DNA from: Candidatus Latescibacterota bacterium
GTDB lineage: Bacteria > Latescibacterota > UBA2968 > UBA8231
Reading direction: 5' to 3'
Assembly: GCA_965215195.1 (NCBI GenBank)
Contig: CBDCDC010000002.1
Span: forward strand, 4,672,001-4,736,000
DNA length: 64,000 nucleotides
This document shows positions 22,442-52,814 of this stretch, in pieces; the first letter of the stretch is position 1; every line of letters starts with the position of its first letter. Made by a program: the position numbers and the translations under genes. The notes under the pieces are model-generated. The model was given only the letters and a program-made list of their open reading frames with translations. It was not told the origin of the DNA and searched no databases.

Positions 22442-22593
22442 CTTAGTACACGACCCCTAAAGTAAGCGACCCTTACTTTGAGTACGCCTTTTCTGCGGTT
22501 TCCGCTGGGTGCGGGATCGAGGGCGTCCCGTCCTCGCCGAGGGCAAGATGCCCTCGATCCTTGGCCGGCTGAAGGCTGGTGGCGTGTAGTAAG
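22442..22593. mobile_element. 152-bp MITE with a REP-like double palindrome
   Basis: TIR CTTAGTACACGAC / GGCGTGTAGTAAG (11/13); perfect 9-bp TSD GGCGTAAAC (22433-22441 and 22594-22602); internal GGATCGAGGGCGTCCCGTCCTCG-CC-GAGGGCAAGATGCCCTCGATCC. Confidence 0.85.
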
Positions 22594-23224: not shown

Positions 23225-23328
23225 CTAACTACACGACACCAATAACTTGTCGTTGATGGGCGATGCGTCCGGGATCGAGGGCAAGATGCCCTCGATCCGA
23301 GGGTAAGGCCCTACTGTCGTGTACTTAG
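23225..23328. mobile_element. 104-bp MITE, same family as 22442-22593
   Basis: TIR CTAACTACACGAC / GTCGTGTACTTAG (12/13); 8-bp TSD TGGCTTTT; perfect 12-bp hairpin GGATCGAGGGCA-AGA-TGCCCTCGATCC (23272-23298). Confidence 0.85.
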
Positions 23329-23371: not shown

Positions 23372-23462
23372 GCCATCTCTCAGGTCTGTTCGCTGTTCGC
23401 ATCGCCTGTCGATTCGGGGTTCTTACAGCTATCCTGTGGCACGTCAGCCCTCTTGATTGCTC

Positions 23463-25160
23463 ATGCGCAACCTGCTCGCCGCCTGTCTAGCTCGCATCTC
23501 GCTCCAGACCGCAGTGAAATCCCTCATTGCACTCGTCCTCCTAGCCCTGCTCGGCTGTGCGCCCGACGAGGTGGTCCTCGCCAAGATCGCAGATTCCGAG
23601 ATAACGGAGGCCGAGTTGGCGGAATTTGTCGCCCGGTTGCCCAAACATCTGCGCAGCGACGAGCAGGGAATTGAGGCGGACCGAGAACACCTCGAGTCCA
23701 TGGTTGACCAAGAGTTGCTCCTGCTAGAGGCGAGGAGCCGGGGGCTGGACACGGCCGCAGCGCTAGTCCAGCAAATGGAGGACGCCGTGCGGCGACGCCT
23801 GTCCATGCGCTACCAGCGCGAGGTGATCGCGTCGAAGATAGACATCGGCCCCAAGGAGATTGAACGCGCCTTCCGCGACATGGGCTTCGACCGAGAGCGC
23901 CTGCTGAACCGCATCGTCGTAAGCGGAAGCCAACGGGACGCACAGGCCGTGCTCGAGCAGCTCGAAGCCGGAAGAGAGTTCTCCGACCTAGCGAGAGAGC
24001 ATTCCGCAAACGACGCCAAGGCCGACTCAAACGGCGCGATCGGCTGGATTGGGTTGACCCAGCTCAAGCGCTTCCTGATTCCGCAGCGCGAGTTCCTCTC
24101 GCTCCCGGTCGACAAACCGGCGCTGATGCGCCTTTCGCCCGGGGCCTATCAGATCATCCAGTTCGCAGCAGACCGGGAGGCCCAGATCCAAACCTACCAA
24201 GAGGAGATTCTCAAACTACTTCACATGGAGCAGTGGTGGCGCCGCACCGAAGAGGAGGTCGAACTCCTCGGCCGAGCGCACGGCGTCCAGTTCCATGCGC
24301 AAGGGGTGCAGGCGTTGATCCAACGCGTCGAGAAACGCCAGAGCGAGTTGTCGGAGGAACAAGCGCGGCAACCCCTTTTCACGTTTGCCGACGGAAGCGT
24401 TATTACAGCGGCTGACTTCTTGACGCGGCTGCGAAAACTGGGCCGCAACTCGGCGGTGAAAGATAGTGCGCGGATCGTCGCCATGGCCGAGCAAGAGCTC
24501 CTCCATCCCTATTTGTTTAGCCTCGCGGCTCGCGAACGCGAGTGGCACGAGGAGGAGGGCTTTGTCGACTGGCGATCCCACACCCACACCGGACTGTTGC
24601 TGGACCGTCTGATGCAGCTCGAAGTGGAGGACCACCTTTCTCTTGCGGAAGCCGACTTGCAGGCCTACTACAATGCCAACCGCGAGAGTTTCCGCACGGC
24701 CGAAACGGTCCGCATCGAGGAAGTACACGTGCAGGACGAGGCCGCCGCCATGCAGTTGCGCGACGAAATAGAGCGGGGAGCGGAGTTTGCCGCAATCCTT
24801 CAGCGTCCCGGGGTGGCTTCGCACGGCATCCATAAAAGGGGCGGCGAGATGATCGTTCAGCCCCACCTCACGGGCGGTTTTCCAGAATTGGTTGAGGCTG
24901 CATTCGCCGCGCAAGAGGGCGAGTTGGTTGGTCCGGTTTACCTAGAGAAGCCGGATAGTTATGCCATTCTCCGGGTCCTCGAGCGGCAGCAGAGCCGCAG
25001 CAAATCCTTTGCAGAGGCCCGGAAGTCGGTCGAGTACGCGTTGCGTTTGCAGCAGCGAGACACCCTAATCTCCGGCTTCTTCCGGTCGCTGCGGGAGCAA
25101 TACGAGGACCGCATCGTCATCTTCGCCGACCGCTTGGAGCAGCGGCACCAGGGTCAGTAA
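23463..25160 (+). CDS. PpiC/SurA/PrsA-like peptidylprolyl isomerase chaperone, lipoprotein, two rotamase-like domains
   Basis: Lipobox LLGC (an alternative GTG start lies at 23514); VLAKIADSEIT, GREFSDLAREHS, GAEFAAI, AFAAQEGELVGPV, FAEARKSV. Confidence 0.8.
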   Translation: MRNLLAACLARISLQTAVKSLIALVLLALLGCAPDEVVLAKIADSEITEAELAEFVARLPKHLRSDEQGIEADREHLESMVDQELLLLEARSRGLDTAAALVQQMEDAVRRRLSMRYQREVIASKIDIGPKEIERAFRDMGFDRERLLNRIVVSGSQRDAQAVLEQLEAGREFSDLAREHSANDAKADSNGAIGWIGLTQLKRFLIPQREFLSLPVDKPALMRLSPGAYQIIQFAADREAQIQTYQEEILKLLHMEQWWRRTEEEVELLGRAHGVQFHAQGVQALIQRVEKRQSELSEEQARQPLFTFADGSVITAADFLTRLRKLGRNSAVKDSARIVAMAEQELLHPYLFSLAAREREWHEEEGFVDWRSHTHTGLLLDRLMQLEVEDHLSLAEADLQAYYNANRESFRTAETVRIEEVHVQDEAAAMQLRDEIERGAEFAAILQRPGVASHGIHKRGGEMIVQPHLTGGFPELVEAAFAAQEGELVGPVYLEKPDSYAILRVLERQQSRSKSFAEARKSVEYALRLQQRDTLISGFFRSLREQYEDRIVIFADRLEQRHQGQ

Positions 25161-25201
25161 CAGGTGGAGTCCGGCTCGCGCTTCATCAGCGAGGGAGCCA
25201 A

Positions 25202-27877
25202 TTGATAAACCTGCACGACAATACAGCTAAGGGGCTCATCGTCCTAGGGCTTTTGAGCACCAGCCTCCTACCAGCGGCCGGGCAGCAGGACTACGGCGCG
25301 CGCCTGGGCTGGGGCCAAGGGGACGAGTATAGCTATGCCCCCCAAGGGCCGGGGGTGATGCTCAACGCCATTGACCCGGCCATACGCAAGTGGTACGTGC
25401 CCCAAGAGCTCTACCTAGACTACCGCTGGCACCAGTGGGAGTACACGAACTATGCGCGGGATCACTACCAGCGCTACATCGACACCTCGCTAGAGGGCGA
25501 ATACTTCTACGACATCTACGGCAACTCGCTCCCCCGCGGCTGGTTGATCTACAACAATTCGCAGACCACGCCGGGGCAGTTCGGCAACTCCCTGTTCAAA
25601 TCCAATCGCTTCAGAGACTGGTTCTCCGGCGTGGTCGTCACCCACGACCAGAAGGGTCAATACTATTTCTCGCTGACCGTGAGCAATCAGCTATACACGA
25701 CCCTGACGCCCATGGTGTTCTCCAAGCCGCGCTTCGACGGGCTGCAGTTCGACCTAGCCACGGACCGCGTCGAGGCCACGCTGCTCTATTCCCGCATAAG
25801 CAATCCCGGCGCCAGCAGCACCCTCAACAGGGAATCCTTGAGCACCAACAACACGAGCTTGATCGGTGGGCGGCTGACCGGGGAGATCGGCGATTATGCC
25901 AAGGTGGGGCTACACGCCGTCAACGCCCACCAGTCCAACACGTTGCGCGACAGGACGAGCTGGAACCCCTTAGCCGGCGAGCTGACCGTGGCGCAGAACA
26001 AACCCATCGGTTTCATCCAGCTCGTACTGCGCGACGACTCGCCCGAGGACGGCGAGGGGGGCGCGGCGTACTTTCCGGCCGGATCAGACATCTTCATCAC
26101 CTATCAGGACGGCACCCGGGAGCGGGGTAGGGAGATCGGCTTCCTGCCGCTCGTGGAGGGCGGGATTGTCCGCCAGGGCTTCATCGCCGCTGACGGCGCG
26201 GAAGAGGTGCGGCTGGTCTACGACTTCGACAGTCCCGGTTTTCTCGACCAAGCGAAATTTACCAAGGCCGAGATCGTCGAGGTAGAATTCCGGCTGCAGA
26301 TGGGCAACGACTACCAAGTTTGGGTAACCTCCGATCAGCAGACCGATTTCGACGGCCAGCCGGTCCTGCTGCTCGTGGCCCAAGCCGAGGGCAACGTCCG
26401 CGACATCACCAATCTGCGCACGGTGCGCTTCCACTACGGGCTGCCCACCGCAACCCATATCGCCGGAGGCAGTCTCGAGATTCGCGCCCCGTTCGGCTTC
26501 GACTTCTACGGCGAGTACGACCGCAGCTGGACCTACCGCAAATACCCCAACGTCGCAGAGGAAACGCACCACTCCTCCTCTGGCATCCGAGGCGCGGCGA
26601 GCGCGCCGGCCTGGATGGTGAACGTTTCCCAGAGCAGGGCACCGTGGTTTTTCTTCGGCGAAGCCTACAGCATGGACCCGTTCTACAACACGCGCACCTT
26701 CCTCACCTCCGGCGTCGGAGAGATCGACTACGGCGATACGCGCCGCAGCGGGTTTGAACTGGTTGAGGACAACGACGACCACGACCGCGTCCCGGATACG
26801 GTGCGGGCCGATTGGCTGGAAGGCGACAAGGAGGTCTTCCCCAACTGGGACCAGAACAACGACTTCGTGCCCGATTTCAACCAGAACGACAACAGGGTAC
26901 GCGCCAATGCCATCCCCGACTACGAGGAAGCCTTCCTGCGCTTCGGCGTGGACCGCCCCCAGTTCCTCTTCGGCGTCGATATGAACCACAACTTCTGGAT
27001 CGATCAGTATGAGAACGACGAAGCCCCCGACTTCCCGTACCGCCGAGACCACGAGGGGTTCAACCTCTATGCCGGGGCCGCTATCACCCCCGCAGTGAAG
27101 GTGATAGCGGGCGTCCTGCGGGAGGCGTTGATCTCGAGCGACAAGAGGAATCACAGCAACTACGCCTTGCTGACTATTGATTCGGATACGCCCCGTTTTG
27201 GCCGGCTGCGCACCTACTGGATGGCCCAATGGGTTGAGGACGATATCCCCGATCCCCTGTTGCAGTGGGCGCCCGACAACTCCCTGCGCGGCGGGGAGCT
27301 CATCCGCATCGAAGATCCGCTCCTCGCGCGGGACACCTATATCAACCAACTCTTCGTCGGCTACTCCCTGCAAACAGGCCCTTGGCTGGTTGTCAACAAG
27401 GTCCGCCACGTCCTCTACGACCAGCGGATGTCCGACGAGCGCCGGCAGAAACTGGGCCTTTCTAACAAGGACTACTTCTTCGGTTTGACCAACAAGGCGA
27501 GCTACCGTCGCTGGGTCGGGCCTTTCCTGCTGGAACCGCGCTGGAAGAGCGAGTACATCCGCCAGACCCGCGGCCTGTTCGACGCCGGCCGGCGATCGAG
27601 CCTCACCGAGATGGTCGCGGCCATAGCGGAGACTCCGCTCTTGAGTGCATCCAAGGTCCAGACCGGAGTCGAGTACCTATACTTCAATGATCTGGACGAT
27701 GACCAGCGGGATTTCAACGCCCTAACCGTGGCGATACAGTTCACCACCGATTCCACCTATCTGGGTTACGGCCTGCGCTCGCTGCTCGGGGTTTCCGTAG
27801 AACACCGGGACTTCAAGCAGCGGAAGTCGCGGACGACCAATCAGTTTTTCATTACGCTCTACGCCGGTCTGGAGTAG
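25202..27877 (+). CDS. Uncharacterised ~890-aa exported protein, putative outer-membrane beta-barrel with Asp-rich Ca-binding-like repeats (paralog A)
   Basis: Signal peptide; alternating amphipathic strands in the C-terminal third ending QFFITLYAGLE; DNDDHDRVPD, DQNNDFVPD and DMNHN repeats; extensive identity to 31957-34704. Confidence 0.6.
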   Translation: MINLHDNTAKGLIVLGLLSTSLLPAAGQQDYGARLGWGQGDEYSYAPQGPGVMLNAIDPAIRKWYVPQELYLDYRWHQWEYTNYARDHYQRYIDTSLEGEYFYDIYGNSLPRGWLIYNNSQTTPGQFGNSLFKSNRFRDWFSGVVVTHDQKGQYYFSLTVSNQLYTTLTPMVFSKPRFDGLQFDLATDRVEATLLYSRISNPGASSTLNRESLSTNNTSLIGGRLTGEIGDYAKVGLHAVNAHQSNTLRDRTSWNPLAGELTVAQNKPIGFIQLVLRDDSPEDGEGGAAYFPAGSDIFITYQDGTRERGREIGFLPLVEGGIVRQGFIAADGAEEVRLVYDFDSPGFLDQAKFTKAEIVEVEFRLQMGNDYQVWVTSDQQTDFDGQPVLLLVAQAEGNVRDITNLRTVRFHYGLPTATHIAGGSLEIRAPFGFDFYGEYDRSWTYRKYPNVAEETHHSSSGIRGAASAPAWMVNVSQSRAPWFFFGEAYSMDPFYNTRTFLTSGVGEIDYGDTRRSGFELVEDNDDHDRVPDTVRADWLEGDKEVFPNWDQNNDFVPDFNQNDNRVRANAIPDYEEAFLRFGVDRPQFLFGVDMNHNFWIDQYENDEAPDFPYRRDHEGFNLYAGAAITPAVKVIAGVLREALISSDKRNHSNYALLTIDSDTPRFGRLRTYWMAQWVEDDIPDPLLQWAPDNSLRGGELIRIEDPLLARDTYINQLFVGYSLQTGPWLVVNKVRHVLYDQRMSDERRQKLGLSNKDYFFGLTNKASYRRWVGPFLLEPRWKSEYIRQTRGLFDAGRRSSLTEMVAAIAETPLLSASKVQTGVEYLYFNDLDDDQRDFNALTVAIQFTTDSTYLGYGLRSLLGVSVEHRDFKQRKSRTTNQFFITLYAGLE

Positions 27878-27885
27878 AGAGGTCC

Positions 27886-29880
27886 ATGCGGGACAACGGC
27901 TACAGGGCCGTCGGCGAGGCGGCCGCCATCTTTGCACTCGCTTTGTCAACGCGGTGGCTCTACGTCCACCAGACCGGCGACCACCCCCTGCGGGATATTC
28001 CCATTGGTGCCGCCATCGCCCATGTCGAGCGAGCTGCTGGAGAAGCGGCCGGTTTCGCGTCGCTGTACGATGCCTTTCTCGCAGGCACCTTGGGCATGGC
28101 CGGCGGGGACTACCAGCTAGCCCGGGGAGTCCAAGTCGCGCTGGGCACCGCCAACTGCGTCCTCGCTTGGTCGCTGGCGCGGGCCGCCTTCTCGCCCGGA
28201 ATAGCCGTCGCCGCCGGCCTAGCCGCTGCTGTCTACAGTCCGGCGATCTACTTCGCTGGTGCGCTCTTGCCGCCGGTCTTGGCTACGTGTCTAGTGCTGC
28301 TCAGTCTGATCGCCCTAGCGCAAGCCCTAACCGCAACGAGGGCCTCGCTCTTCTCGCTGCCGGGCTTGCTGCTCGGACTGGCCGTGCTGGCCGAATGGTG
28401 GGTGTCGCTGTTCGCCTTAGTCATGCTCGTCTGGTTGCTGCAGCGGAAAAAGCGGGGAGCGGCTGCCTCGCTGGCCTTGGGGATCTGCGCGCTGCTGCTG
28501 CCCGCCCTCCTGTGGTCGGCTTGGACGCCGGGATTTGCAGAGCTTGGGCTGGCCGAGGGCTTCCGCCGGATCTACGCCCTCTGGCAAGGGATTGAGTTCC
28601 TGCCAGACCTCGATCCCTACTATGCGCGCCAGCATTCCAGTCTGCTTGCGGCCTTGTTGTGGAAAGCCGGGCTGGCCTTTCCCTTCGGCCTAGTGGCCCC
28701 GCTGGCCCTAGTGGGCATCCTCTCGCGCCTCCGCGTCGAGCGCCAGCCGCTGGAGACCGCGCTACTCCTGTTCGCTGGATGTTTCGCGGTGCAGGCCCTG
28801 CTCTTCGCGCCGGCCGACTCGGGCACGCGGTCCCCGGCCGCACCGGCCTTGCTGATCTTTGCCGCCGTCGGGGTGGCGGCTATGGGTGCCCGGCCGCGCC
28901 GGCCCGCGCTGGCCCTCGGTGCGGTTGGCCTTCTCCTAGGCGTTGGTCTCAACATGGGCGATATGGGCGCGGCCGGCCGCGCCCGCCAGCACTACTGGCT
29001 CGGCTATGGCTTTGAGCAACTCGGCCTGCGCGCCAATGCGGTGCGGGAGTACGAGTTGGCCCTTGCGCTGGACGCCGGAAGCCTAGAGACCTACTACGCG
29101 CTGGCCGAGCACTACCTAGCCCAGAGCGACAATATCCGCGCCGCTGGCCTCTACGAGAGCCTGCTCCAGCACTGGCCCGATCAGGACCGGGCACGCCGGG
29201 CCCTCGGCGAGGTGTACATGGCCTCCGGGCGTGCTCCCGCAGCAGCGAAGTTGTACCGGGCGCTGCTCAACGCGGAGGCCGATGCGAAGGCCGAGGTGCT
29301 ACCCATGCTGGGCGAGGCGCTGGTCCGCAGCGGCGACATGGAAGGAGGCATCAGGGCCTACCGCGAGGCGCTAGATGTTCTGCCGAGCAACGGCGCGGTA
29401 CGCGGCAAGCTGGCCTTGTTGTACTCGGCGACCGGCCAGCTCGCCGCGGCGGTGGACGCCTACCGCATCCTGTTCGAGGAGGGACAAGTGGCCGAATTCG
29501 GTCCGCCGCTGGCCGAGGTGCTAATCCGCAGTCAGCGGGACGAGGATGCGGCGGCCGTGCTCGAGCGGGTCCTGCAGGTCGCGCCCGAATCAACCGCGGC
29601 CCTAGCGCTGCGGGGCAAGCAACTGTTTGAGCAGGGCCGCCACCGCGCCGCCGCGGTCCACTTCGAGCGGTTGCGCCGGCTTTGGCCGCAGGACTACCGC
29701 GTCTATTTCTACCTAGCCAAGCTCTACGAGCATCTCGGCGAAGATACCAAGGCCGACGATGCCCACGCGCTCTACATCCGCTATCGGCGGCACAAAGCGC
29801 GCGCGGCCATGCAGGGGCACATGCAGCTAGTAGGAGAAACGATGGCGGAGAAGTTGCAATCCCATCTGGAGCAGAGATAG
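27886..29880 (+). CDS. GT-C (ArnT/PMT-like) membrane protein with C-terminal TPRs, degenerate (paralog A)
   Basis: About 10 hydrophobic helices followed by TPR-like helical repeats; shares LDPYYAR..SSLL.ALLW..GLAFPFGLV.PLAL with 41104-42915. Confidence 0.7.
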   Translation: MRDNGYRAVGEAAAIFALALSTRWLYVHQTGDHPLRDIPIGAAIAHVERAAGEAAGFASLYDAFLAGTLGMAGGDYQLARGVQVALGTANCVLAWSLARAAFSPGIAVAAGLAAAVYSPAIYFAGALLPPVLATCLVLLSLIALAQALTATRASLFSLPGLLLGLAVLAEWWVSLFALVMLVWLLQRKKRGAAASLALGICALLLPALLWSAWTPGFAELGLAEGFRRIYALWQGIEFLPDLDPYYARQHSSLLAALLWKAGLAFPFGLVAPLALVGILSRLRVERQPLETALLLFAGCFAVQALLFAPADSGTRSPAAPALLIFAAVGVAAMGARPRRPALALGAVGLLLGVGLNMGDMGAAGRARQHYWLGYGFEQLGLRANAVREYELALALDAGSLETYYALAEHYLAQSDNIRAAGLYESLLQHWPDQDRARRALGEVYMASGRAPAAAKLYRALLNAEADAKAEVLPMLGEALVRSGDMEGGIRAYREALDVLPSNGAVRGKLALLYSATGQLAAAVDAYRILFEEGQVAEFGPPLAEVLIRSQRDEDAAAVLERVLQVAPESTAALALRGKQLFEQGRHRAAAVHFERLRRLWPQDYRVYFYLAKLYEHLGEDTKADDAHALYIRYRRHKARAAMQGHMQLVGETMAEKLQSHLEQR

Positions 29881-31946: not shown

Positions 31947-31956
31947 CAGGCGTTTT

Positions 31957-37808: not shown

Positions 37809-37825
37809 GGGATCTGGTGCAGACT

Positions 37826-39997: not shown

Positions 39998-40038
39998 TTT
40001 TTTATTTTTTTGGCGTTTATGGCACAGCAAAATTTTAG

Positions 40039-40067
40039 TTGCATTGCACAAATTTAGTTCGTACCAT
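40039..40067 (+). promoter_or_regulatory. Putative sigma70 promoter with tandem AAATT(T)TAGTT repeats
   Basis: TTGCAT-N17-TACCAT in an AT-rich intergenic region; repeats at ~40030 and ~40050; strong RBS AAGGAGAGG before 40115. Confidence 0.4.
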
Positions 40068-40114
40068 CTGTACACTTTCCCACTAACCCGCACTTCACAT
40101 AAGGAGAGGTAATC

Positions 40115-41032
40115 ATGCGTAAAATACAGATGATTGCCATAGGCGTACTTGCAGTTTCGACGGCCGTTTGGGCCCACGATCCTCCGGATGAGGTCCGCAA
40201 CGCGGTCCAGTTCCCGGCCGGCCTCGAGCCCACGATCGACGGCGACTGTTCCGACTGGGCCGTCGTCCCAGGCGATCAGTACTGGGTGTTCACCGAAGAC
40301 CTCTTCCCGCTGGGCGAATTCCATCCCACCGAGGGACTCGGCCGCGGCGAGAACGATGCCAGTTCTTTCCAAACCACGTACCGGGTCGGCTGGAGCGCCA
40401 GCACCGGCCAGCTCTACTACTGCAACTCCGTGTTTGACGATGTCCACAACATCGATCGCCCCGATTCCTACGACTGGTACCTCGACGACTCAAACGAGTA
40501 CTTCTTCACGACCCGACACCTTTCGGAGCAGGAAGTGAGGGACCTGCTCGAGACGAACGTCGCCGCCTATTGGGGCTTCAATTATGCCCTGCCGAAGTTG
40601 CCCGAGGGTGGCTTCTGGATGGTGATCGGCATGTGCATCGGCTGCGAATGGTTGGATAACGGCGACAACGAATGGTACACGCTAGTACACGGGTTCGAAG
40701 GCGAGGAGTTTGGCGAGAGCACCTATCACTACGAGCACCGGATCCAACCTATCGACTCTTGGACTACCGGCTTGGGCGAAGACTTCGGGCCCAGCGACAT
40801 TACCCCCGCAACGCTCAGCGAGGGGCAGACCATCCACATCACCTTCGGGACCAACGACGACGACGGCGGCGAGCGCGGTGGCCATTGGAGCAGCGGTAGC
40901 GGCCTCGTCGGAGGCACTTGGCTGGGCCAAGGCGACTACTTCCTAGAGCCGATCAACCCGTCCATTAACTGGCCCGAGGTGCCCACCTCGGTCGAGTCGG
41001 AGAGTTGGGGCCGGATCAAGGCTCAATTCTAA
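40115..41032 (+). CDS. Secreted acidic protein, CBM9/DOMON-like fold, with a C-terminal SVESESWGRIKAQF motif
   Basis: Signal peptide ending VWA-H; PTIDGDCSDW, VFDDVH and YEHRI resemble CBM9-like sugar-binding proteins; terminal WGxIK motif. Confidence 0.7.
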   Translation: MRKIQMIAIGVLAVSTAVWAHDPPDEVRNAVQFPAGLEPTIDGDCSDWAVVPGDQYWVFTEDLFPLGEFHPTEGLGRGENDASSFQTTYRVGWSASTGQLYYCNSVFDDVHNIDRPDSYDWYLDDSNEYFFTTRHLSEQEVRDLLETNVAAYWGFNYALPKLPEGGFWMVIGMCIGCEWLDNGDNEWYTLVHGFEGEEFGESTYHYEHRIQPIDSWTTGLGEDFGPSDITPATLSEGQTIHITFGTNDDDGGERGGHWSSGSGLVGGTWLGQGDYFLEPINPSINWPEVPTSVESESWGRIKAQF

Positions 41033-41062
41033 GCCCCCTAGAAGAGTCTCTTGCAAAGCTCG

Positions 41063-41098
41063 CGCTGGACAGGTTAGTTCGCCTGTCCAGCGTTTTTT
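41063..41098 (+). terminator. Intrinsic terminator
   Basis: Perfect 11-bp stem CGCTGGACAGG-N8-CCTGTCCAGCG followed by TTTTTT. Confidence 0.88.
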
Positions 41099-41103
41099 AT
41101 TTT

Positions 41104-42915
41104 ATGGAACGTCGGCACCAAATCGGCTTGGCCCTGCTGGCTCTGTCGTCCTTCACCCTGCGGTTGCTCTACCTACTTCAGGCCGATGACAGCCCGCTCT
41201 TCGCCCATCCCATCGTCGACGCCCGAACCTATGTGCGCACGGCCCTGCACCTGTCCGCGGGCGAGTGGCTCGGGGCCGCGCAGCCGTTTTGGCAGCCGCC
41301 GCTGTATCCCTATTTTCTCGGCGGCTTGTTCGCCCTGTTCGGCGAGGATTACCACTTGCCCCGGCTCGTGCAGGCAGTCTCCGGGGCCGCGGTCTGCCTC
41401 CTAGTCTTCTCCTTGGGCCGCCGTGCGTTCTCCTCTCCCGCAGTGGGCTGGTTGGCCGCGGGCGCGGCCGCGCTGTACGGCCCTTTCCTCTACTTCGAAG
41501 GTGAGCTGTTACCCGCCAGCTTGGCGGTGTTCCTCAACACCCTAGCGCTGCTGGCCCTGATCTGGGCAGCCGCTGGCCGCAGCGGTCGCGGGCTGGTCGC
41601 GGGCCTTCTCCTCGGAGTGACTGCGCTGACCGTCGCCAGCGTGCTCCTCTTCGTTCCCGTTGCCCTCCTGTGGGCACGACGCCAAGCGCGGGCACCGGTC
41701 GGCGCACTGATTCTCGGCTTTGCACTGGTCATCGCGCCGGTCACCCTGCGCAACCGCGTCGTCGGGGGCGAGTGGGTGCCGATCTCCTATAACGCCGGCA
41801 TCAATTTCTACCTAGGCAACAATCCCGACTACGACCGCACGACGAACATCCGCCCCGGGCGCGACTGGCGGGAACTGACCGACATGCCTGAGCGGGAGGC
41901 CGGCATCACCGCCAAGGGGGCCTCCTCGAGATACTTTCTCGGCCGCTCCTGTGATTATATCGCCGCTGATCCGGCAGGCTATGTCCTCCTGCAGCTGCGC
42001 AAGCTCTATCTCTTCTGGCGCGGCGACGAGATTCCGCGCAACCTGAATCCCTATTACGCCCGCCGCGAGTCCTCCCTGCTGCAGGCCCTGTTGTGGATCC
42101 ACGGCCTCGCTTTCCCCTTTGGCCTCGTGGGGCCGCTCGCCCTGACGGGGCTGTTTCTCTACCTGCGGGATCCCCAAGCCCGCTCACCCGCCGCTGACTT
42201 GCTGCTGCTGTTTACCGCCGCCTACGCGCTAGCGGTAGTCCTGTTTTTCGTCACCGGCCGCTATCGTCTCCCGGTCATTCCTCCCCTGCTCCTGTTCGCC
42301 GGCTACGCACTGACGCGGTTGCGCCTGTTGCGGGGGCGGCAACTGGCCGGGGGGCTGGCCTTGCCGGCCGCATTGGTGGTGGGCCTCAACGCCGGCATCC
42401 CGGCCATGGATGTGAAGGGCGACAGCCAAGAGCACGTCTATTTGGCAGCGGCCTACGCCGCAGAGGGCTTGCTGGCCAATGCGCTTAGGCACTACGAGCA
42501 GGCGCTAGAGCTGGAACCGACGCACGAGATCGCCCTCGACGCCGCCGGTGCCGTGCGGGCGCGGCGCGGGGATTTCCGCCGGGCCGCGGCGAGCTGGGAG
42601 CGCCTGCTGCATCACTATCCCGACCGCATCGACGTCCGCTTCCGGCTGGCCGCGATGAGCCTCGACACGGGCGACTATGCGCGGGCGGAACGGCACTTCA
42701 AGCATCTGACGGCCGAGGAACCCGGGCGCGCCATCTTCCACGCCCGCCTGGCCCAAGCCCGCCGCCATCTGGGCGATCTCGACGGGGCCGCCGCCGCCTA
42801 CCGCCGCGCCCTCGAACTGGATCGGCCGCTCCAGCGGGGCAACCAACAGGCCGGCGAGGTGGAAGAATTCTACCGACGCCTAGGCAGAGGGCGCGAACCA
42901 GCGGCCGGCCCGTGA
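41104..42915 (+). CDS. GT-C (ArnT/PMT, GT39/GT83-like) glycosyltransferase with C-terminal TPRs (paralog B)
   Basis: PIVDARTY, FWQPPLYPYFL, NAGINFYLGNNP, FFVTGRYRLP; TPRs such as ALRHYEQALELEP and AAYRRALELD. Confidence 0.82.
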   Translation: MERRHQIGLALLALSSFTLRLLYLLQADDSPLFAHPIVDARTYVRTALHLSAGEWLGAAQPFWQPPLYPYFLGGLFALFGEDYHLPRLVQAVSGAAVCLLVFSLGRRAFSSPAVGWLAAGAAALYGPFLYFEGELLPASLAVFLNTLALLALIWAAAGRSGRGLVAGLLLGVTALTVASVLLFVPVALLWARRQARAPVGALILGFALVIAPVTLRNRVVGGEWVPISYNAGINFYLGNNPDYDRTTNIRPGRDWRELTDMPEREAGITAKGASSRYFLGRSCDYIAADPAGYVLLQLRKLYLFWRGDEIPRNLNPYYARRESSLLQALLWIHGLAFPFGLVGPLALTGLFLYLRDPQARSPAADLLLLFTAAYALAVVLFFVTGRYRLPVIPPLLLFAGYALTRLRLLRGRQLAGGLALPAALVVGLNAGIPAMDVKGDSQEHVYLAAAYAAEGLLANALRHYEQALELEPTHEIALDAAGAVRARRGDFRRAAASWERLLHHYPDRIDVRFRLAAMSLDTGDYARAERHFKHLTAEEPGRAIFHARLAQARRHLGDLDGAAAAYRRALELDRPLQRGNQQAGEVEEFYRRLGRGREPAAGP

Positions 42916-44816
42916 GTTCTTCGAGCCCAACCTATCGAGCCTTGTTTCTGGGCACCCTCGGCTGCCTGCTGGTCGGGGCCGGTTCCCAGTACACCGACAT
43001 GATGCTCAAGCGCTCCGGGTTCACCGGGTGGTACTACACGCCGGGTGCTCTGATCATACTATTCCTCGTACTGCTGGTCGCCAACCCGATCGCGGGTCTC
43101 ATGCGCCGGCGCTGGATGTTGACCTCGGCCGAATTGGCGCAGATGTACGTGATGTGGATCGTCGGCTCAGCGGTGGCCACCTGCGGCATCGTCTCCTATC
43201 TGCTGCCCATGCTGACCAGCGCCGTCTACTACGCCAGTGCGGAAAATAACTGGACCTACGAACTGCTGCCGTTGATCCCGGACTGGGTCATTCCCAGCAA
43301 GGAATTCGGCGAGATCAAGGATTTCTACGAGGGCGGGGCCGACGGCGTGCCCTGGCGGATGTGGCTCCCTCCCCTACTCCACTGGTTGCCTTTCGCCCTC
43401 TCGCTGCACATTGCCATGATCGCCATCATGGTCATCCTGCGAAGGCAATGGGTGGACCACGAACGCCTGATCTTCCCCATGACCCAGCTGCCGATCGCCA
43501 TGATCCAAGACGGGAAATCCCCTGAACTGATCAAACCGTTGTTCAAGAATTGGCTGTTCTGGCTCGGGTTCGCCATTCCCTTCTTCATCCAGAGTTACAA
43601 CGGCGTCAACCGCCACTTTCCCTTCCTGCCCCAGATCGCCATCGGGGGGTATTATCTCTATTTCCTCGAGGACCAGCTGCGCCTGCGGATCGGCATCAAT
43701 TTTATGATGATCGGCTTCACGTACCTAGTGCGGCGCGAAGTTTCGCTCGGGTTCTGGGTCTTCGCGATTGTCAACTTTGCCCAAGAAGCAGTGATGATCA
43801 CCTTGGGGGTCGAGCGCCACGAACCCCTGTTCAGCCACTTCTCCCGCGGGGGCACCATTGCCTCGCACCAAGGTTTTGGGGCCTTTGTCGTGCTGGCACT
43901 GTTCAGCCTGTGGAACGGGCGCGGCCACATCGCCCAGGTGGTGCGACAGGCGTTCGGGCGCGGCCAGCGCGTGGACGACAGCGACGAAATTCTCTCCTAC
44001 CGGGCAGCCGTGCTGCTGCTGTTGGGTTGTGTGAGCTTCATGGGCTTCTGGCTGTGGCAAGCGGGCCTGCCGGCGTGGATCGCGGTGATCTTTCTCGCTC
44101 TGGCCTTCATCCTGTTTCTCGGCATCACCCGGATTATCTCCGAAGGGGGCTTACCCTACCTGCTGGCCCCGATGGTCGCGTCTGACGTAGTCGTTGGCGG
44201 GATCGGCACCCGGGCCTTGGGAGCAACCGGCATCGCCGCTTTGTCCCTCACCTACATGTGGGCCAGCGACATCATCACCTTCGTAATGGTCTCCTGCGCC
44301 AACGGGCTCAAGGTGATCGAAGAGCACGTCAAGCTAGGCCGGCGGTTCATCTTCCCGAGTCTGGTGGTGGCCCTGATCGCGACCATGTGCAGTTCGGCTT
44401 GGGTGCTGCTGACCATTGCCTACGAGCACGGCGGGCACAACACCTCCCACTATTTCGCCGGGCAGTCCCAGTATCCCTTTGAGGACGCCTTGGTCCGATT
44501 GCGCACCCCTGTGGGGCCCCAGTGGGAATACTGGGGGTATATGGCCATCGGCGGTGGAATCATGGGCGGGCTGCTGCTGCTGCGCCAGCAATTCGTCTGG
44601 TGGCCGCTGCACCCGATCGGTTTTCCCATCAGTTTGGTGATTCACAAGATGTTCTTCACGGTGCTGGTGGCTTGGCTCCTAAAGACCGCGATACTTCAGT
44701 ACGGCGGTCCTAGGCTGTTCAGCCGGCTGCGGCCGTTTTTCCTCGGACTCATCCTCGGGGATTTCTTCCCGTTGGCTTTCCTGTTGCTGCTCGACCAATT
44801 GGCGGTGCGCTTGTAA
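42912..44816 (+). CDS. DUF6785/DUF6784-like polytopic membrane protein (paralog A)
   Basis: YYASAENNW, FYEG, PWRMWLPP, ILRRQWVDHERLIFP, WWPLHPIGF, YGG..L...LRPFFLGLILG; GTGA overlap with the upstream gene. Confidence 0.7.
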   Translation: MSSSSPTYRALFLGTLGCLLVGAGSQYTDMMLKRSGFTGWYYTPGALIILFLVLLVANPIAGLMRRRWMLTSAELAQMYVMWIVGSAVATCGIVSYLLPMLTSAVYYASAENNWTYELLPLIPDWVIPSKEFGEIKDFYEGGADGVPWRMWLPPLLHWLPFALSLHIAMIAIMVILRRQWVDHERLIFPMTQLPIAMIQDGKSPELIKPLFKNWLFWLGFAIPFFIQSYNGVNRHFPFLPQIAIGGYYLYFLEDQLRLRIGINFMMIGFTYLVRREVSLGFWVFAIVNFAQEAVMITLGVERHEPLFSHFSRGGTIASHQGFGAFVVLALFSLWNGRGHIAQVVRQAFGRGQRVDDSDEILSYRAAVLLLLGCVSFMGFWLWQAGLPAWIAVIFLALAFILFLGITRIISEGGLPYLLAPMVASDVVVGGIGTRALGATGIAALSLTYMWASDIITFVMVSCANGLKVIEEHVKLGRRFIFPSLVVALIATMCSSAWVLLTIAYEHGGHNTSHYFAGQSQYPFEDALVRLRTPVGPQWEYWGYMAIGGGIMGGLLLLRQQFVWWPLHPIGFPISLVIHKMFFTVLVAWLLKTAILQYGGPRLFSRLRPFFLGLILGDFFPLAFLLLLDQLAVRL

Positions 44817-44861
44817 CGGCAGGCCCGGCAGGGCGCGGGCCGAACAGCGAACGCAATCGGG

Positions 44862-46853
44862 CTAGTAGTGGTGGGAGAAGACCGGGACTTTGTTGCCGGT
44901 GCCACCGGCCAGCAAGTCGACGCCGAGCCAGAACGCCGAGCAGGTAATCTGCCCTAGTATAAAACCGAGAAAGAGGGGTCGCAGGGCGCGGTAGAGCCGG
45001 ACCCCACCGTACTTGAGGACAAAAGCCTTCAGGACCGATCCCAAGAAGATGCTGAACCAGCTCGCCGAGGTCATGTTGGTGGCACTGACGGCGAAGCCGA
45101 TATAGTGTATGGGCCACCACAGGAAATGGTGCCGGGCCCAGATGAGGGCGGTCATAACCGCACCGCCGAGGCCGGTGAACAACAACCGCGGGCCCATCAC
45201 GTCAAAAGGCGCCAACAGGCTGACGGGGTTCAGCATTTTGTAGGCGGTGAAGTTAGCGGGTCCCTTGGCCATGGCCTGATACGCCCACAGCTCCAGATTG
45301 ATGCCGCCGTGCTCGTAGGCCAGATAGATGACGAGCCAGACCGAGGAGAGCAGGCTGACGAGCATGGCGACGACCATTGCCCACAAAAGGGGACGCCGCA
45401 GCGCACCAACGCTCTCGGCCAACTTCATGCCGTTGATGGCCGAGGCCATGAGCAGGATGCGCAGGTTGCCGGCCCAGCTAAAGGTCATGGCCAAGCTGAA
45501 GATGCCGGACGGCGTGACGGAACCCGTGCCGAGAAAGTTGATGACGATGGTCTGGGACGTCATCTGGGGCCGGATGAAGCCCAAGCCGCTCTCGGCGATG
45601 AGGCGGGCCATAAACAGGAAGACGCCGAACGCCACCAGTAGGAAGACGATGGTCACCCACAGCGGCACCCCCGACAAGGTGAGCCAAGCTGTCGCGTAAA
45701 GGCCGCAGACGCCCAGCAGCAGGGCGGCCGCCCGGTAGGAGAGCATCTCACCGCTATCGTCGGGGGCGTTGGGACCGGAACCCCAGACTTTGCAGGCGAC
45801 CGCCTTGAGGTGATCGCGGGCCGTCCAGATGCCGTACGCGATGAGGGCCAGCATGGCCCCCATGCCTTGGTGCGCCAGCATCAGGGTCCCCTCCATGAAC
45901 TTTTCGATTTCCCCCGACAGCCGGTAGCCGATGATGTACTGGAGCCCCATCTGCAGGTTGGCCAGCAAGTGGAACAGCCAGAGGCTGGAAGCCAACGCGA
46001 AGCTGAGGAAGTAGGCCAAGCCGAGGACGGTAAAGCTGAGGAGGATTTCGAGGGCCCCGAAGTCGCGAAAGGGTACGATGACGGTGTACAGCTCGACCTT
46101 GGGAATGACCGGGAAATAGAAATTCAGTCCGTGGGTACTCATCAGGCAGAACGGCACCAAGAAGCCAACCCACATGAGCGGGCTCTTCAGGAATGGGCCG
46201 AAGCGATCGCCGGGCCGGCCCTCCTCGATCATCTGCAAAGGTAGCTGCACTAGCGGGAAGAGCAGGCGCTCGTGGTCCACCCACTGCCGGCGCAGCAGCA
46301 CCATCAGCGCGATCATCATCAGGTATATGGCCACGATGAAGGTGAGCCAAGCGACCAGCGGCACGACCCAAGCACTCCAAGGGATGGCCGCGCCTTCGGG
46401 CAGGCCCTCAAAGAAATAGGTGACGGCATCGCGGTCGTGAACCACCATCCAGCGGTGGATGTAGGGGTGAATGAGCGCGGACCAGTCGTTCTCGGCCGTG
46501 GCGAAGTAGTAAACCGCCGGGAGCATCGGGATGAGGTTGGCCGAAAAGCCCCAAGTGGGAATGGTCGAGGCGATGATGAGCATCACGTAGACCACGGCCA
46601 GCTCGCCGCGATTGAAGCCCCAAGGCCGATGCACCAGCTTGAGCAACGGATTGAGAAAAGCGGTGAGAAGAAAGAAGACGGCCACGGCCCCGGCGGTGAT
46701 GTAGTCCGAGGACATACCGGCCGTGGACAGGGCCAGCCGGCAGTAGGCAAAGCCGACGCTGATGAGCAGGGACAACAAGGTCCCGGCGATGATGCTGCGG
46801 GCAAAGCGCAGGTGGGTCTCGCCGGCGGCTTGTGGGGTGCGGGAAGTGGCCAT
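44862..46853 (-). CDS. DUF6785/DUF6784-like polytopic membrane protein (paralog B)
   Basis: YYFATAENDW, FFEGLP, LLRRQWVDHERLLFP, WWPIHYIGF, YGGVRLYRALRPLFLGFILG; convergent with paralog A. Confidence 0.7.
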   Translation of the reverse strand: MATSRTPQAAGETHLRFARSIIAGTLLSLLISVGFAYCRLALSTAGMSSDYITAGAVAVFFLLTAFLNPLLKLVHRPWGFNRGELAVVYVMLIIASTIPTWGFSANLIPMLPAVYYFATAENDWSALIHPYIHRWMVVHDRDAVTYFFEGLPEGAAIPWSAWVVPLVAWLTFIVAIYLMMIALMVLLRRQWVDHERLLFPLVQLPLQMIEEGRPGDRFGPFLKSPLMWVGFLVPFCLMSTHGLNFYFPVIPKVELYTVIVPFRDFGALEILLSFTVLGLAYFLSFALASSLWLFHLLANLQMGLQYIIGYRLSGEIEKFMEGTLMLAHQGMGAMLALIAYGIWTARDHLKAVACKVWGSGPNAPDDSGEMLSYRAAALLLGVCGLYATAWLTLSGVPLWVTIVFLLVAFGVFLFMARLIAESGLGFIRPQMTSQTIVINFLGTGSVTPSGIFSLAMTFSWAGNLRILLMASAINGMKLAESVGALRRPLLWAMVVAMLVSLLSSVWLVIYLAYEHGGINLELWAYQAMAKGPANFTAYKMLNPVSLLAPFDVMGPRLLFTGLGGAVMTALIWARHHFLWWPIHYIGFAVSATNMTSASWFSIFLGSVLKAFVLKYGGVRLYRALRPLFLGFILGQITCSAFWLGVDLLAGGTGNKVPVFSHHY

Positions 46854-46931
46854 TGTGCTCCGCGGCACCGGAATTTGCATGGGACGAGCTGACACTTGTC
46901 GGAAAACTACCCGGAGTTCGCCAACTCCGCC

Positions 46932-52799: not shown

Positions 52800-52814
52800 G
52801 CATAAACAAAAAAA

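What the first reader, a model, noticed from the sequence alone, without database searches (positions are those of the whole stretch)
23463..46853. Candidate undescribed cell-envelope machine: barrel / FlgD-Ig / GT-C-TPR / PPIase / DUF6785 locus
Seen: ten co-directional genes over ~21 kb, with stop/start overlaps (TAGTG at 29880, ATGA at 34701, GTGA at 42912) or gaps mostly under 45 bp, plus a convergent eleventh gene. The locus is built from recurring paralog families: 2 putative OM barrels, 3 FlgD-Ig-tailed secreted proteins, 2 GT-C+TPR proteins, 2 DUF6785-like membrane proteins, 1 SurA/PrsA-like chaperone and 1 WGxIK-tailed protein. It has no ATPase, no TonB box, no SusC/D and no Por/Gld/Bam gene. 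Inference: it is a dedicated export/assembly/glycosylation system for a surface complex, or a non-TonB barrel-plus-lid uptake system feeding a DUF6785 inner-membrane transporter. I know no described system with this composition.
Basis: partly seen in the sequence, partly recalled or inferred. Interest (0 to 1): 0.9.

Follow-up and report, generated by a model that had tools for sequence, protein, structure and literature searches.

The report
Repeated Latescibacterial surface-capture uptake module
This locus is one of about 35 related gene modules in one Latescibacterota-type genome, each pairing secreted lectin-like surface proteins and an unclassified outer-membrane barrel with an OPT-like inner-membrane carrier, and it probably serves nutrient capture in a way not yet described.

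Summary
All eleven genes, the paralog pairs and the three start/stop overlaps are real. The locus is not a single machine. It is one copy of a heavily multiplied module. The same genome holds 52 barrels (B), 127 tailed proteins (T), 45 DUF6785 carriers (D), 35 PPIase lipoproteins (P) and 18 WGxIK proteins (W). Together with 14 GT-C+TPR proteins (G) these make 291 of 4,876 genes and 11% of residues. They are clustered far beyond chance and syntenic across Latescibacterota MAGs. The T tails resemble the T9SS type-B sorting domain, and the genome encodes SprA and PorU. A confident model of D has the OPT/Yellow-Stripe transporter fold. B is a large barrel with no Pfam or PDB relative. In relatives that lack B, D lies beside SusC-like TonB-dependent operons. 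Best reading, about 0.5: a PUL-like capture and uptake module built from non-SusCD parts. The function is inferred, not shown. I found no description of it in the literature I searched.

The parts
23457..25160 (+). P: lipoprotein parvulin-type PPIase, SurA/PrsA-like (G1)
   Evidence: Rotamase_2 55.6 bits, Rotamase 39.2 bits, SurA_N_3 20.1 bits (below its cut-off). A lipobox ...LLGC lies at the N-terminus. There are 35 paralogs in the genome, most with a Cys after the signal sequence.
25202..27877 (+). B1: large outer-membrane beta-barrel of an unclassified family (G2)
   Evidence: No Pfam or NCBIfam hit; 0 of 44 family members hit Pfam. The AF2 model is a barrel over residues ~144-891 with pTM 0.67. 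Only generic OM-barrel fold matches were found. There are 52 paralogs.
27886..29880 (+). G: GT-C-like membrane protein with C-terminal TPR repeats (G3)
   Evidence: TPR families are strong; PMT_2 scores 19.8 bits, below its 26.1 cut-off. It is a paralog of G9.
29880..31946 (+). T (subfamily Ta): secreted protein with a T9SS type-B-like C-terminal domain (G4)
   Evidence: CHU_C 18.9 bits, below its cut-off. PorU C-terminal region match. Family membership and subfamily. The start GTG overlaps the stop of G3.
31936..34704 (+). B2: second barrel, paralog of G2 (G5). The start is uncertain (31936, 31957 or 32032).
   Evidence: 52-53% identical to G2. No Pfam hit.
34701..37808 (+). T (subfamily Td): long tailed protein with an N-terminal discoidin/F5-8 type C-like domain (G6)
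   Evidence: F5_F8_type_C 27.4 bits (cut-off 28.2), FlgD_ig 27.3 bits, CHU_C 21.6 bits.
37805..39997 (+). T (subfamily Ta): tailed protein (G7)
   Evidence: CHU_C 27.1 bits (cut-off 27), FlgD_ig 25.9 bits. The family has 2047 cluster representatives at E<=1e-3. The family profile matches CBM32/F5-8C lectin domains and FlgD-Ig/PorU tail domains in the PDB.
40115..41032 (+). W: ~300-aa secreted CBM9-like protein ending in TSVESESWGRIKAQF (G8)
   Evidence: No Pfam hit for G8 itself. CBM9_1 is hit by 10 of 39 family members, and the Atlas gives a CBM9 lead. The C-terminal motif is shared by ~60 proteins of the genome. An AT-rich upstream region with a strong AAGGAG lies before the ATG.
41062..41103 (+). 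Intrinsic-terminator-like hairpin (13-bp stem, T-run) after W
   Evidence: sequence checked.
41104..42915 (+). G: GT-C (PMT_2) plus TPR protein (G9). The ORF is open from 41005; the probable start is ATG 41104, after the terminator.
   Evidence: PMT_2 29.4 bits (cut-off 26.1) plus TPR families. Terminator position.
42912..44816 (+). D1: DUF6785+DUF6784 polytopic inner-membrane protein with the OPT/Yellow-Stripe transporter fold (G10)
   Evidence: DUF6785 393.8 bits, DUF6784 85.8 bits. AF2 pLDDT 89.4, pTM 0.91. Foldseek 7wsr/7wst E 1.4e-8, TM 0.64-0.70.
44862..46895 (-). D2: convergent second DUF6785+DUF6784 protein (G11)
   Evidence: DUF6785 408.6 bits, DUF6784 91.8 bits. 35% identical to G10.

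Best explanation
The locus is one copy, in fact a fused double copy (P-B-G-T / B-T-T-W, then G-D and D), of a module multiplied about 35-fold and specific to part of the Latescibacterota.

Proposed working (inferred):
1. The T proteins are exported by the Sec system. They are then moved across the outer membrane by the genome's type IX secretion system, through their type-B-like C-terminal domain.
2. They stay on the cell surface bound to the cognate barrel B encoded next to them. This is how type-B cargo binds PorP/SprF-like barrels in Bacteroidota.
3. Their variable N-terminal CBM32/discoidin-like domains, together with the CBM9-like W protein, capture a glycan or glycoconjugate.
4. Fragments pass through the large barrel B into the periplasm.
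5. The OPT-fold carrier D takes them across the inner membrane.
6. The lipoprotein PPIase P is a module-specific periplasmic chaperone for B or T.
7. In the sub-type seen here, the GT-C/TPR proteins glycosylate module proteins on the periplasmic side.

Shown: gene content, massive paralogy, clustering, synteny, co-diversification, the barrel fold of B, the OPT fold of D, the lectin-like and T9SS-like domains of T, and the presence of SprA and PorU.

Inferred: surface anchoring of T on B, passage of substrate through B, the direction and substrate of D, and the roles of P, W and G.
For: (1) Multiplicity and clustering. In my 4,876-gene call there are 52 B, 127 T, 45 D, 35 P, 18 W and 14 G. 34 loci hold both B and T. 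The gene just upstream of B is a co-oriented T in 31 of 52 cases. Proximity exceeds all 1000 random placements.

(2) Position-specific T subfamilies (Tc-Tc-Tb-B; W-Ta-Tb-Ta-B; P-Td-B-G-Ta-Ta-B-W) suggest distinct subunits rather than interchangeable copies.

(3) Modules diversify as units. Mantel r between B and adjacent T is 0.55 (0 of 2000 permutations reach it), B and P 0.55 (0 of 2000), B and D 0.38 (2 of 2000).

(4) Synteny in other genomes. Of 55 barrel-centred loci of at least 20 kb from named Latescibacterota-type MAGs, T is present in 55, G in 54, P in 52, W in 44 and D in 22.

(5) T is T9SS-cargo-like. CHU_C hits 69 of 72 and FlgD_ig 69 of 72 family representatives. All 74 genome matches to TIGR04131 lie in T genes. 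SprA scores 605.8 bits and PorU 628.6 bits, both over their cut-offs, and a PorV-like gene lies next to PorU.

(6) Type-B cargo binding an adjacent PorP-like barrel has experimental precedent (PMC9143113, abstract read).

(7) The T profile matches CBM32/F5-8C/fucolectin domains in the PDB, best E 5.8e-7. W is CBM9-like.

(8) D has the OPT/YSL fold and nothing else comes close: TM 0.64-0.70 against about 0.12 for the next hits.

(9) In two B-less relatives with 54 and 23 D copies, 7 of 20 D-centred loci carry a SusC-like TonB-dependent transporter operon next to D (CarboxypepD_reg+Plug, ~1000 aa). D is thus linked to outer-membrane uptake gear in a second, independent context.
Against: - No energy source or gate for B is evident. 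There is no Plug or TonB-dependent domain. Its conserved N-terminal ~130 residues and its Asp-rich segment are unmodelled.
- Unlike PULs, no degradative enzyme family recurs in the modules. 205 neighbouring proteins spread over more than 150 Pfam families in each half, with no dominant glycoside hydrolase or peptidase.
- D lies in the same locus in only 17 of the 34 B+T loci.
- B and D can be separated across the phylum. Family f10 has B-like hits in 12 of 13 genomes and D in 0 of 13. Families f2 and f3 have D in 42 of 42 and B in 0 of 42.
- The OPT Pfam model does not hit D by sequence.
- The T tails stay under the curated TIGR04131 cut-off, best 34.3 against 35 bits.
- GldK and GldM orthologs were not detected with the Bacteroidota-trained models. 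The GldM control was silent, so that result is inconclusive.
- All functional steps are inferred. There are no expression-by-substrate or localisation data.
Confidence: 0.5

Rival explanations
1. Surface display only. Each module encodes T9SS type-B cargo (adhesins or lectins) plus its own anchor barrel B, an oversized functional analog of PorP/SprF. It serves attachment to particles, hosts or prey, or gliding. B conducts nothing, and the nearby D carriers are ordinary co-regulated transporters.
For: The T-B adjacency and the type-B-like tails mirror the SprB-SprF and PG1035-PorP pairs (PMC9143113). There are no plug, TonB or degradative genes in the modules. D is missing from half of the B+T loci. 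Family f10 has B-like genes without D.
Against: D lies closer to B than in any of 1000 random placements and co-diversifies with it (r 0.38, 2 of 2000 permutations). Several modules have D directly adjacent and co-oriented with B or T. A barrel of about 750 residues is far larger than an anchor needs; PorP/SprF has 273 Pfam positions. In relatives D also sits by TonB-dependent uptake operons.
Confidence: 0.22
2. Export and assembly machine for a glycosylated surface layer. B is a module-specific secretion or usher-like pore for T and W. P is the chaperone, the GT-C/TPR proteins glycosylate the cargo, and D recycles or supplies a precursor.
For: GT-C+TPR genes lie inside this locus and in 54 of 55 related loci of this sub-type. 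A lipoprotein PPIase accompanies the barrel. From memory, a PPIase also co-purifies with the SprA translocon; I did not check this here. FimD/PapC ushers and SprA appear among the fold matches of B, with Z 9.5-11.7 and no clear gap to unrelated barrels.
Against: GT-C genes occur in only a minority of modules genome-wide: 14 G against 52 B. The T tails point to the general T9SS rather than a private pore, and SprA and PorU are present. As far as I recall, characterised OPT-fold proteins are importers. The fold matches of B are generic.
Confidence: 0.1
3. Metal-chelate or peptide scavenging. D, like plant Yellow-Stripe carriers, imports a metal-chelator complex or oligopeptides. B with its invariant Asp/Asn-rich segment is a cation-dependent channel, and T and W bind the carrier or protein substrate rather than glycans.
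For: The only structural relatives of D are Fe(III)-phytosiderophore carriers of the OPT superfamily. The most conserved stretch of B is an acidic D/N-rich cluster, with invariant columns at residues 521-613. Published analyses of Latescibacteria predict protein and oligopeptide use (PMC4454575, passages read).
Against: About 45 paralogous carriers is far more than metal uptake would need. The domains recognised in T and W are carbohydrate-binding types. No peptidase or siderophore-synthesis gene recurs in the modules.
Confidence: 0.08

Closest known systems
Bacteroidota polysaccharide utilization loci (SusC/SusD with surface glycan-binding proteins)
   Same: Many paralogous loci per genome. 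Each combines surface-exposed carbohydrate-binding-type proteins, a large outer-membrane barrel and, nearby, an inner-membrane carrier. The loci diversify as units. The general PUL architecture is recalled knowledge.
   Different: There is no SusC (no Plug or TonB-dependent barrel domain in B) and no SusD. The surface proteins are T9SS-tailed rather than lipoproteins. No glycoside hydrolases or regulators recur. The inner-membrane partner has the OPT fold.
T9SS type-B cargo with an adjacent PorP/SprF-like anchor barrel (SprB-SprF, PG1035-PorP)
   Same: Cargo with a type-B-like C-terminal domain is encoded directly upstream of a cognate outer-membrane barrel. The precedent for binding is in PMC9143113 (abstract read).
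   Different: B is about three times longer and shows no PorP_SprF match. That search found nothing in the genome, but its control genomes were silent too. There are two or three different cargo subfamilies per barrel. The modules also carry a PPIase, a CBM9-like protein and an OPT-like carrier.
OPT / Yellow-Stripe-like transporter superfamily (barley YS1, PDB 7wsr/7wst)
   Same: The whole-chain fold of D matches: TM 0.64-0.70, E 1.4e-8, about 660 aligned columns.
   Different: Sequence identity is only 12-14%. The Pfam OPT model does not hit D. D belongs to DUF6785/DUF6784. Its substrate is unknown.
SusC-like TonB-dependent operons next to DUF6785 in sister Latescibacterota families
   Same: The same D family, also in tens of copies, lies next to outer-membrane uptake gear.
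   Different: There the outer-membrane component is a CarboxypepD_reg+Plug transporter with a ~750-aa unknown protein and a PorV/FadL-like barrel. B, T, W and P are not found in those loci.

Membership tests
DUF6785/DUF6784 (Pfam PF20581/PF20580), for G10 and G11 | Score over the Pfam gathering cut-offs (25 and 26.4 bits) | tested here: met
   G10 393.8 and 85.8 bits; G11 408.6 and 91.8 bits.
OPT superfamily (PF03169), for D | Sequence match to the OPT model | tested here: not met
   The OPT model gave two weak hits in the genome, neither at a D gene. A profile of D found no PDB sequence relative.
OPT superfamily, for D | Shared whole-chain transporter fold | tested here: met
   The model (pLDDT 89.4) against 7wsr/7wst: TM 0.64-0.70, E 1.4e-8; next hits TM about 0.12.
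T9SS type-B sorting domain (TIGR04131 / Pfam CHU_C), for T tails | Score over the curated cut-off (35 bits / 27 bits) | tested here: inconclusive
   TIGR04131 gave 74 matches, all in T genes, best 34.3 bits, none over 35. CHU_C: G7 27.1 (cut-off 27), G6 21.6, G4 18.9; 69 of 72 family representatives hit at E<=1e-3.
T9SS (machinery present in the genome) | SprA translocon, PorU and PorV, plus the GldK/L/M/N motor and ring | tested here: inconclusive
   SprA 605.8 bits and PorU 628.6 bits are over their cut-offs. PorV-like scores 147.6 bits, under 250. GldM gave no match with a silent control. GldK gave only partial FGE-domain matches of at most 74 bits against a cut-off of 350. GldL and GldN were not searched.
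PorP/SprF (PF11751), for B | Match to the PorP_SprF model | tested here: inconclusive
   No match in the genome, but the control genomes were silent too. 0 of 44 B family members hit any Pfam family at E<=0.01.
TonB-dependent / SusC-like transporter, for B | Plug domain and TonB_dep_Rec barrel domain | tested here: not met
   No Pfam hit in G2 or G5, or in 44 family members. The same genome's true TonB-dependent receptors are found by PF00593 at 16 other places. A TonB box as such could not be tested.
Polysaccharide utilization locus (strict definition) | Adjacent susC-like and susD-like gene pair | tested here: not met
   None of the 11 genes hits a SusC or SusD family.
Parvulin PPIase, SurA/PrsA-like, for G1 | PPIC-type rotamase domain over the cut-off; SurA N-terminal chaperone domain | tested here: met
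   Rotamase_2 55.6 bits (cut-off 27) and Rotamase 39.2 bits (cut-off 21.7). SurA_N_3 scores only 20.1 bits (cut-off 27.2), so the chaperone domain is not established.
GT-C glycosyltransferase (PMT_2), for G3 and G9 | PMT_2 over 26.1 bits | tested here: inconclusive
   G9 29.4 bits (met); G3 19.8 bits (below). Catalytic residues were not examined.
CBM9 (PF06452), for W | Match to CBM9_1 | tested here: inconclusive
   G8 itself has no hit. 10 of 39 family members hit at E<=0.01, best 4.2e-6. The nearest Atlas clusters carry CBM9_1 in 13%, 37% and 100% of members.
F5/8 type C / CBM32, for the N-terminal domain of T | Match to F5_F8_type_C over 28.2 bits | tested here: inconclusive
   G6 27.4 bits. 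4 of 72 representatives hit. The family profile matches CBM32/fucolectin/F5-8C chains in the PDB at E 5.8e-7 to 1e-3 over profile positions ~90-231.

The most novel reading that the evidence does not exclude
Part of the Latescibacterota has evolved its own high-multiplicity nutrient-acquisition platform. It is independent of SusC/SusD and possibly of TonB. Two or three T9SS type-B-like lectin proteins are anchored on a barrel of a wholly new family, together with a CBM9-like cap protein that carries a new C-terminal sorting tag. These feed an OPT-fold inner-membrane importer. The platform takes up 11% of the proteome. It would be a third architecture for envelope-spanning macromolecule capture, beside TonB-dependent SusCD utilisomes and ABC-based systems.
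Probability: 0.35. Interest if true: 0.9.

Novelty: new variant of a known kind. Interest (0 to 1): 0.8.

Why it matters
Latescibacterota are widespread and uncultured, and their way of feeding is inferred only from enzyme inventories. Here about 6% of the genes and 11% of the residues of one genome belong to a single repeated module. Its barrel has no Pfam or PDB relative, and its carrier is a domain of unknown function.

If the module is an uptake system, three things follow:
- It reveals how this phylum captures substrates without SusCD.
- It gives DUF6785/DUF6784 a fold and a probable role.
- It extends T9SS type-B cargo and anchor pairing outside Bacteroidota.

It would also provide a marker set (B, T, W, D) for reading substrate-specific loci in metagenomes. 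Even under the more modest reading, surface display only, it is the largest paralogous envelope family of the genome and it is undescribed in the literature I searched.

Tried and rejected
- Complex prediction of barrel G5 (residues 13-890) with the C-terminal domain of G4 (residues 570-688): verdict 'no answer', score 0.00 in both runs, controls not run. This is no evidence either way.
- Sequence searches of D and of a D profile against the PDB found nothing useful. The Pfam OPT model did not hit D.
- The B profile against the PDB and Pfam found nothing. Foldseek and VIA matches of the B model are generic outer-membrane barrels (SlpA, MtrB, LptD, FimD, FhaC, porins) with TM<=0.30 or Z<=13.4 and no clear gap to unrelated barrels. 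No family is assigned.
- I looked for recurring degradative enzymes around the modules. I batch-scanned 205 neighbouring proteins, and no dominant CAZyme or peptidase family emerged.
- The 674-aa G13-like family (U) downstream is not linked to barrels: 1 of 10 within 10 kb against a random mean of 1.3. I dropped it from the module, together with the beta-lactamase-like gene.
- Rfam found no regulatory RNA in the window, only two tRNAs. The sigma-70 consensus scan found no more promoter-like sites than shuffles do.
- My first two home-made gene callers mis-called overlapping genes and were discarded. The codon log-odds caller was used.
- RNA-library contigs were laid on the locus. Stretches without cover (for example 27568-30235) say nothing. 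Contig depth cannot rank genes.
- Literature: no paper holds 'DUF6785', 'DUF6784', 'PF20581' or 'PF20580'. No paper holds both 'Latescibacter*' and 'type IX secretion'. Two genome papers on the phylum do not mention such loci in the passages searched.

Full report
**Observation.** The window holds ten co-directional genes from 23457 to 44816 and a convergent eleventh at 44862-46895. They are a shared base at 29880, ATGA at 34701 and GTGA at 42912. There is also TTGA at 37805 and an 11-base overlap at 31936-31946.

- G1 is a parvulin PPIase (Rotamase_2, 55.6 bits).
- G3 and G9 are PMT_2+TPR proteins. PMT_2 is over its cut-off only in G9.
- G4, G6 and G7 carry CHU_C/FlgD_ig tails. G6 also has a near-threshold F5/8 type C domain.
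- G10 and G11 are DUF6785+DUF6784.
- G2, G5 and G8 match nothing.

One correction. A 13-bp-stem terminator-like site with a T-run lies at 41062-41103, right after G8. G9 therefore probably starts at 41104, and the array is probably at least two transcription units. The flanks are unrelated sugar-metabolism genes, a class-A beta-lactamase-like gene and a 674-aa unknown protein.

**The locus is one of many.** Searching the window's own genome (6.13 Mb, 2 contigs, 95.2% complete, 8.5% contamination) gave 67 matches to barrel G2. It gave 47 matches to DUF6785, 46 of them over the cut-off.

I laid the genome in the Python box and called 4,876 genes with a codon log-odds caller. I then classified them by blastp against the window's proteins:

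| Family | Label | Genes |
|---|---|---|
| Tailed proteins | T | 127 |
| Barrels | B | 52 |
| DUF6785 carriers | D | 45 |
| PPIases | P | 35 |
| G8-like | W | 18 |
| GT-C+TPR | G | 14 |

That is 291 genes, or 6.0% of genes and 11.0% of residues. 34 loci hold both B and T. 23 of these also hold P and 17 also hold D. The gene just upstream of a barrel is a co-oriented T in 31 of 52 cases, and another barrel in 9.

Proximity to a barrel exceeds every one of 1000 random placements for T, P, W, G and D. It does not for the G13-like family.

T falls into subfamilies that hold fixed positions:
- '(W2)(lipoprotein) Tc Tc Tb B P'
- 'W Ta Tb Ta B (B) P'
- 'P Td B G Ta Ta B W'

The window reads P B G Ta B Td Ta W G D D<. 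Distances among barrels correlate with distances among their neighbouring genes. For T, r is 0.55 (0 of 2000 permutations reach it). For P it is 0.55 (0 of 2000). For D it is 0.38 (2 of 2000). The modules therefore diversify as units. This by itself does not show physical contact.

**Relatives elsewhere.** G2 has 748 homologs at E<=1e-5 among the 8000 candidates scored. None has a Pfam domain. The few that carry a name are 'hypothetical protein' from Candidatus Latescibacteria.

A scan of one genome per species returned 77 loci. Nearly all come from MAGs labelled Latescibacterota, and some are labelled Gemmatimonadetes or otherwise. Of the 55 loci that are at least 20 kb long, T is present in 55, G in 54, P in 52, W in 44 and D in 22. 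The order is nearly constant: 'D P T B G T T B W'. L022-L024 share the window's own order, and the shorter L021 shares its start (U P B).

In a sample of 121 genomes of the phylum, B was found in 70:
- own family f1: 40 of 40
- f2: 0 of 29
- f3: 0 of 13

D was found in 107:
- f1: 40 of 40
- f2: 29 of 29
- f3: 13 of 13
- f10: 0 of 13, although 12 of 13 f10 genomes have weak B-like hits

So B and D can be separated.

**What the parts are.**

*D.* An AlphaFold2 model of G10 was built from 32 paralogs and orthologs. It is confident, with pLDDT 89.4 and pTM 0.91. In the PDB it matches only the barley Yellow Stripe 1 transporter, 7wsr/7wst, at E 1.4e-8 and TM 0.64-0.70. Every other hit has E>=0.03 and TM about 0.1. 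Yellow Stripe 1 belongs to the OPT superfamily; that assignment is recalled. Sequence methods do not see the link. The Atlas gives only a lead: OPT on 11% of one DUF6785 cluster.

*B.* The model has pLDDT 65.9 and pTM 0.67. It is a large beta-barrel over residues ~144-891 with an inserted beta domain. The strongly conserved N-terminal ~130 residues and an invariant Asp/Asn-rich stretch (~521-613) are not modelled. Fold searches give only generic outer-membrane barrels. None of 44 family members hits Pfam, and a family profile hits no PDB sequence.

*T.* The family is large, with 2047 cluster representatives at E<=1e-3. The conserved core is the C-terminal ~450 residues and the N-terminus is variable. 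A family profile matches F5/8 type C, CBM32 and fucolectin domains near the N-terminus. It matches FlgD-Ig, C5a-peptidase and PorU tail domains near the C-terminus. CHU_C and FlgD_ig each hit 69 of 72 representatives.

*W.* This is a ~300-aa secreted protein. 10 of 39 relatives hit CBM9_1, and the Atlas points the same way. It ends in TAVExxSWGxIKxxF. A loose version of that motif sits within 15 residues of the C-terminus in 65 proteins of the genome, against 18 matches elsewhere in proteins. Those 65 include a second ~304-aa family (W2). W2 accompanies the Tc-Tc-Tb-B modules together with a ~240-aa lipoprotein family.

*P.* Most of its 35 copies have a lipobox cysteine.

**Link to type IX secretion.** The locus has no Por/Gld gene, but the genome does:
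- SprA: 605.8 bits against a cut-off of 200.
- PorU: 628.6 bits against 420.
- A PorV-like gene next to PorU: 147.6 bits, below its cut-off.

The curated type-B sorting-domain model TIGR04131 gives 74 matches at E<=0.01. None is over the cut-off (best 34.3 against 35 bits). All 74 lie in T genes. GldM gave no match, but its control was silent. GldK gave only partial FGE-domain matches.

In Bacteroidota, type-B cargo binds an adjacent PorP/SprF-like barrel for surface anchorage (PMC9143113, abstract read). A T-next-to-B arrangement is the same logic with a different, much larger barrel.

**Independent context for D.** Two B-less relatives carry 54 and 23 D copies. I took 20 D-centred 20-kb stretches from them. 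Seven hold the operon '~240 aa, ~1000-aa CarboxypepD_reg+Plug (SusC-like TonB-dependent transporter), ~750-aa unknown, ~316-aa PorV/FadL-like barrel' beside D. D is thus recurrently tied to outer-membrane uptake gear in two different forms.

**Interpretation.** The best-supported reading, at about 0.5, is a capture-and-uptake module that works like a PUL without being one. T9SS-exported lectin-like T proteins and CBM9-like W sit on the cognate barrel B. Substrate passes through B, and the OPT-fold carrier D imports it. P is a dedicated chaperone. The GT-C/TPR proteins modify module proteins in this sub-type.

The evidence against it is real:
- No plug or TonB element.
- No recurring hydrolases among 205 neighbouring proteins.
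- D is absent from half of the B+T loci.
- B and D can be separated across the phylum.
- The T tails are sub-threshold.
- The barrel model is incomplete.

The rivals are:
- surface display or adhesion only (0.22)
- an export, assembly and glycosylation machine (0.10)
- peptide or metal-chelate scavenging (0.08)

**Expression hints.** Two RNA-library runs from one study hold contigs about 91-95% identical to the locus, so they come from a relative. The contigs span the G1/G2, G4/G5 and G5/G6 junctions. A separate contig covers 40073-41104 and nothing else. That is W, from its AT-rich upstream region to the terminator. The tool warns that DNA may be present in such libraries and that contigs show neither transcripts nor levels. 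This is only a weak hint that W is a separate unit.

**Novelty.** I found no paper naming DUF6785, DUF6784 or their Pfam accessions. None combines Latescibacteria with type IX secretion. Two genome papers on the phylum do not mention such loci in the passages I searched. Supplements were closed.

The parts resemble known kinds: T9SS type-B cargo with an anchor barrel, an OPT-fold carrier, and PUL-like paralogy. I therefore rate it a new variant of a known kind. The bolder reading, a new uptake architecture, stays open at about 0.35.

Noticed in passing
window 40988-41032 (C-terminus of G8), and about 60 other genes of the genome: A conserved C-terminal tail, TAVExxSWGxIKxxF, ends 65 proteins of 140-530 aa in this genome. 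The same loose pattern occurs only 18 times elsewhere in proteins. It looks like an undescribed C-terminal sorting or docking signal. The motif name is my own.
   Followed up: partly
window 39998-41104: W is set apart from its neighbours. Upstream lies a 117-bp AT-rich spacer with AAGGAG before the ATG. Downstream lies a strong terminator-like hairpin. In two RNA-library runs of a relative, a separate contig covers 40073-41104 only.
   Followed up: partly
loci L174-L193 (genomes G039 and G058): In Latescibacterota families without the barrel, DUF6785 genes (54 and 23 copies) often sit beside a repeated operon. It comprises a ~240-aa protein, a SusC-like CarboxypepD_reg+Plug transporter, a ~750-aa protein with no Pfam family and a PorV/FadL-like ~316-aa barrel. 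GWxTD-domain proteins are sometimes present too.
   Followed up: partly
genome G000, many sites (e.g. C2:1085829-1087460; C2:4779600-4781414, which is window 107600-109414 and so outside the window): FG-GAP_3+UnbV_ASPIC (CRTAC1-like) and TPR proteins form a linked group of 97 genes genome-wide. 42 of them lie in or within three genes of the module loci.
   Followed up: partly
window 22513-22560 and 23262-23300: The 1.1-kb upstream spacer holds two copies of a GC-rich hairpin-forming repeat (GGATCGAGGGC...GCCCTCGATCC). It also holds a 75-aa ORF on the minus strand (22701-22928) that my blast clustering grouped with two other ORFs near module loci and seven genome-wide.
   Followed up: no
window 48040-50064: A 674-aa protein with no Pfam family has about 9 paralogs in the genome. 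They are not associated with the barrels (1 of 10 within 10 kb).
   Followed up: partly
genome G000 C2:2146090-2191329: At least eight ~715-755-aa ORFs in a 45-kb stretch have C-terminal regions matching the PorU tail. This may be another tandem family of T9SS-type cargo, distinct from T.
   Followed up: no
window 52715-52888 (-), 14330-16486 (-), 46932-47828 (-): Two adjacent tRNA genes, a DNA methylase (N6_N4_Mtase) and a class-A beta-lactamase-family gene lie in the window outside the locus.
   Followed up: no
G2 residues ~521-613 (window ~26762-27040): The most invariant stretch of the barrel family is an Asp/Asn-rich segment (DNDDxDxxPD ... NDFxPDFNQNDN ... PDYEEPF ... ENDEEPDYPY). AlphaFold2 does not model it. 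It may be a cation-binding loop.
   Followed up: no
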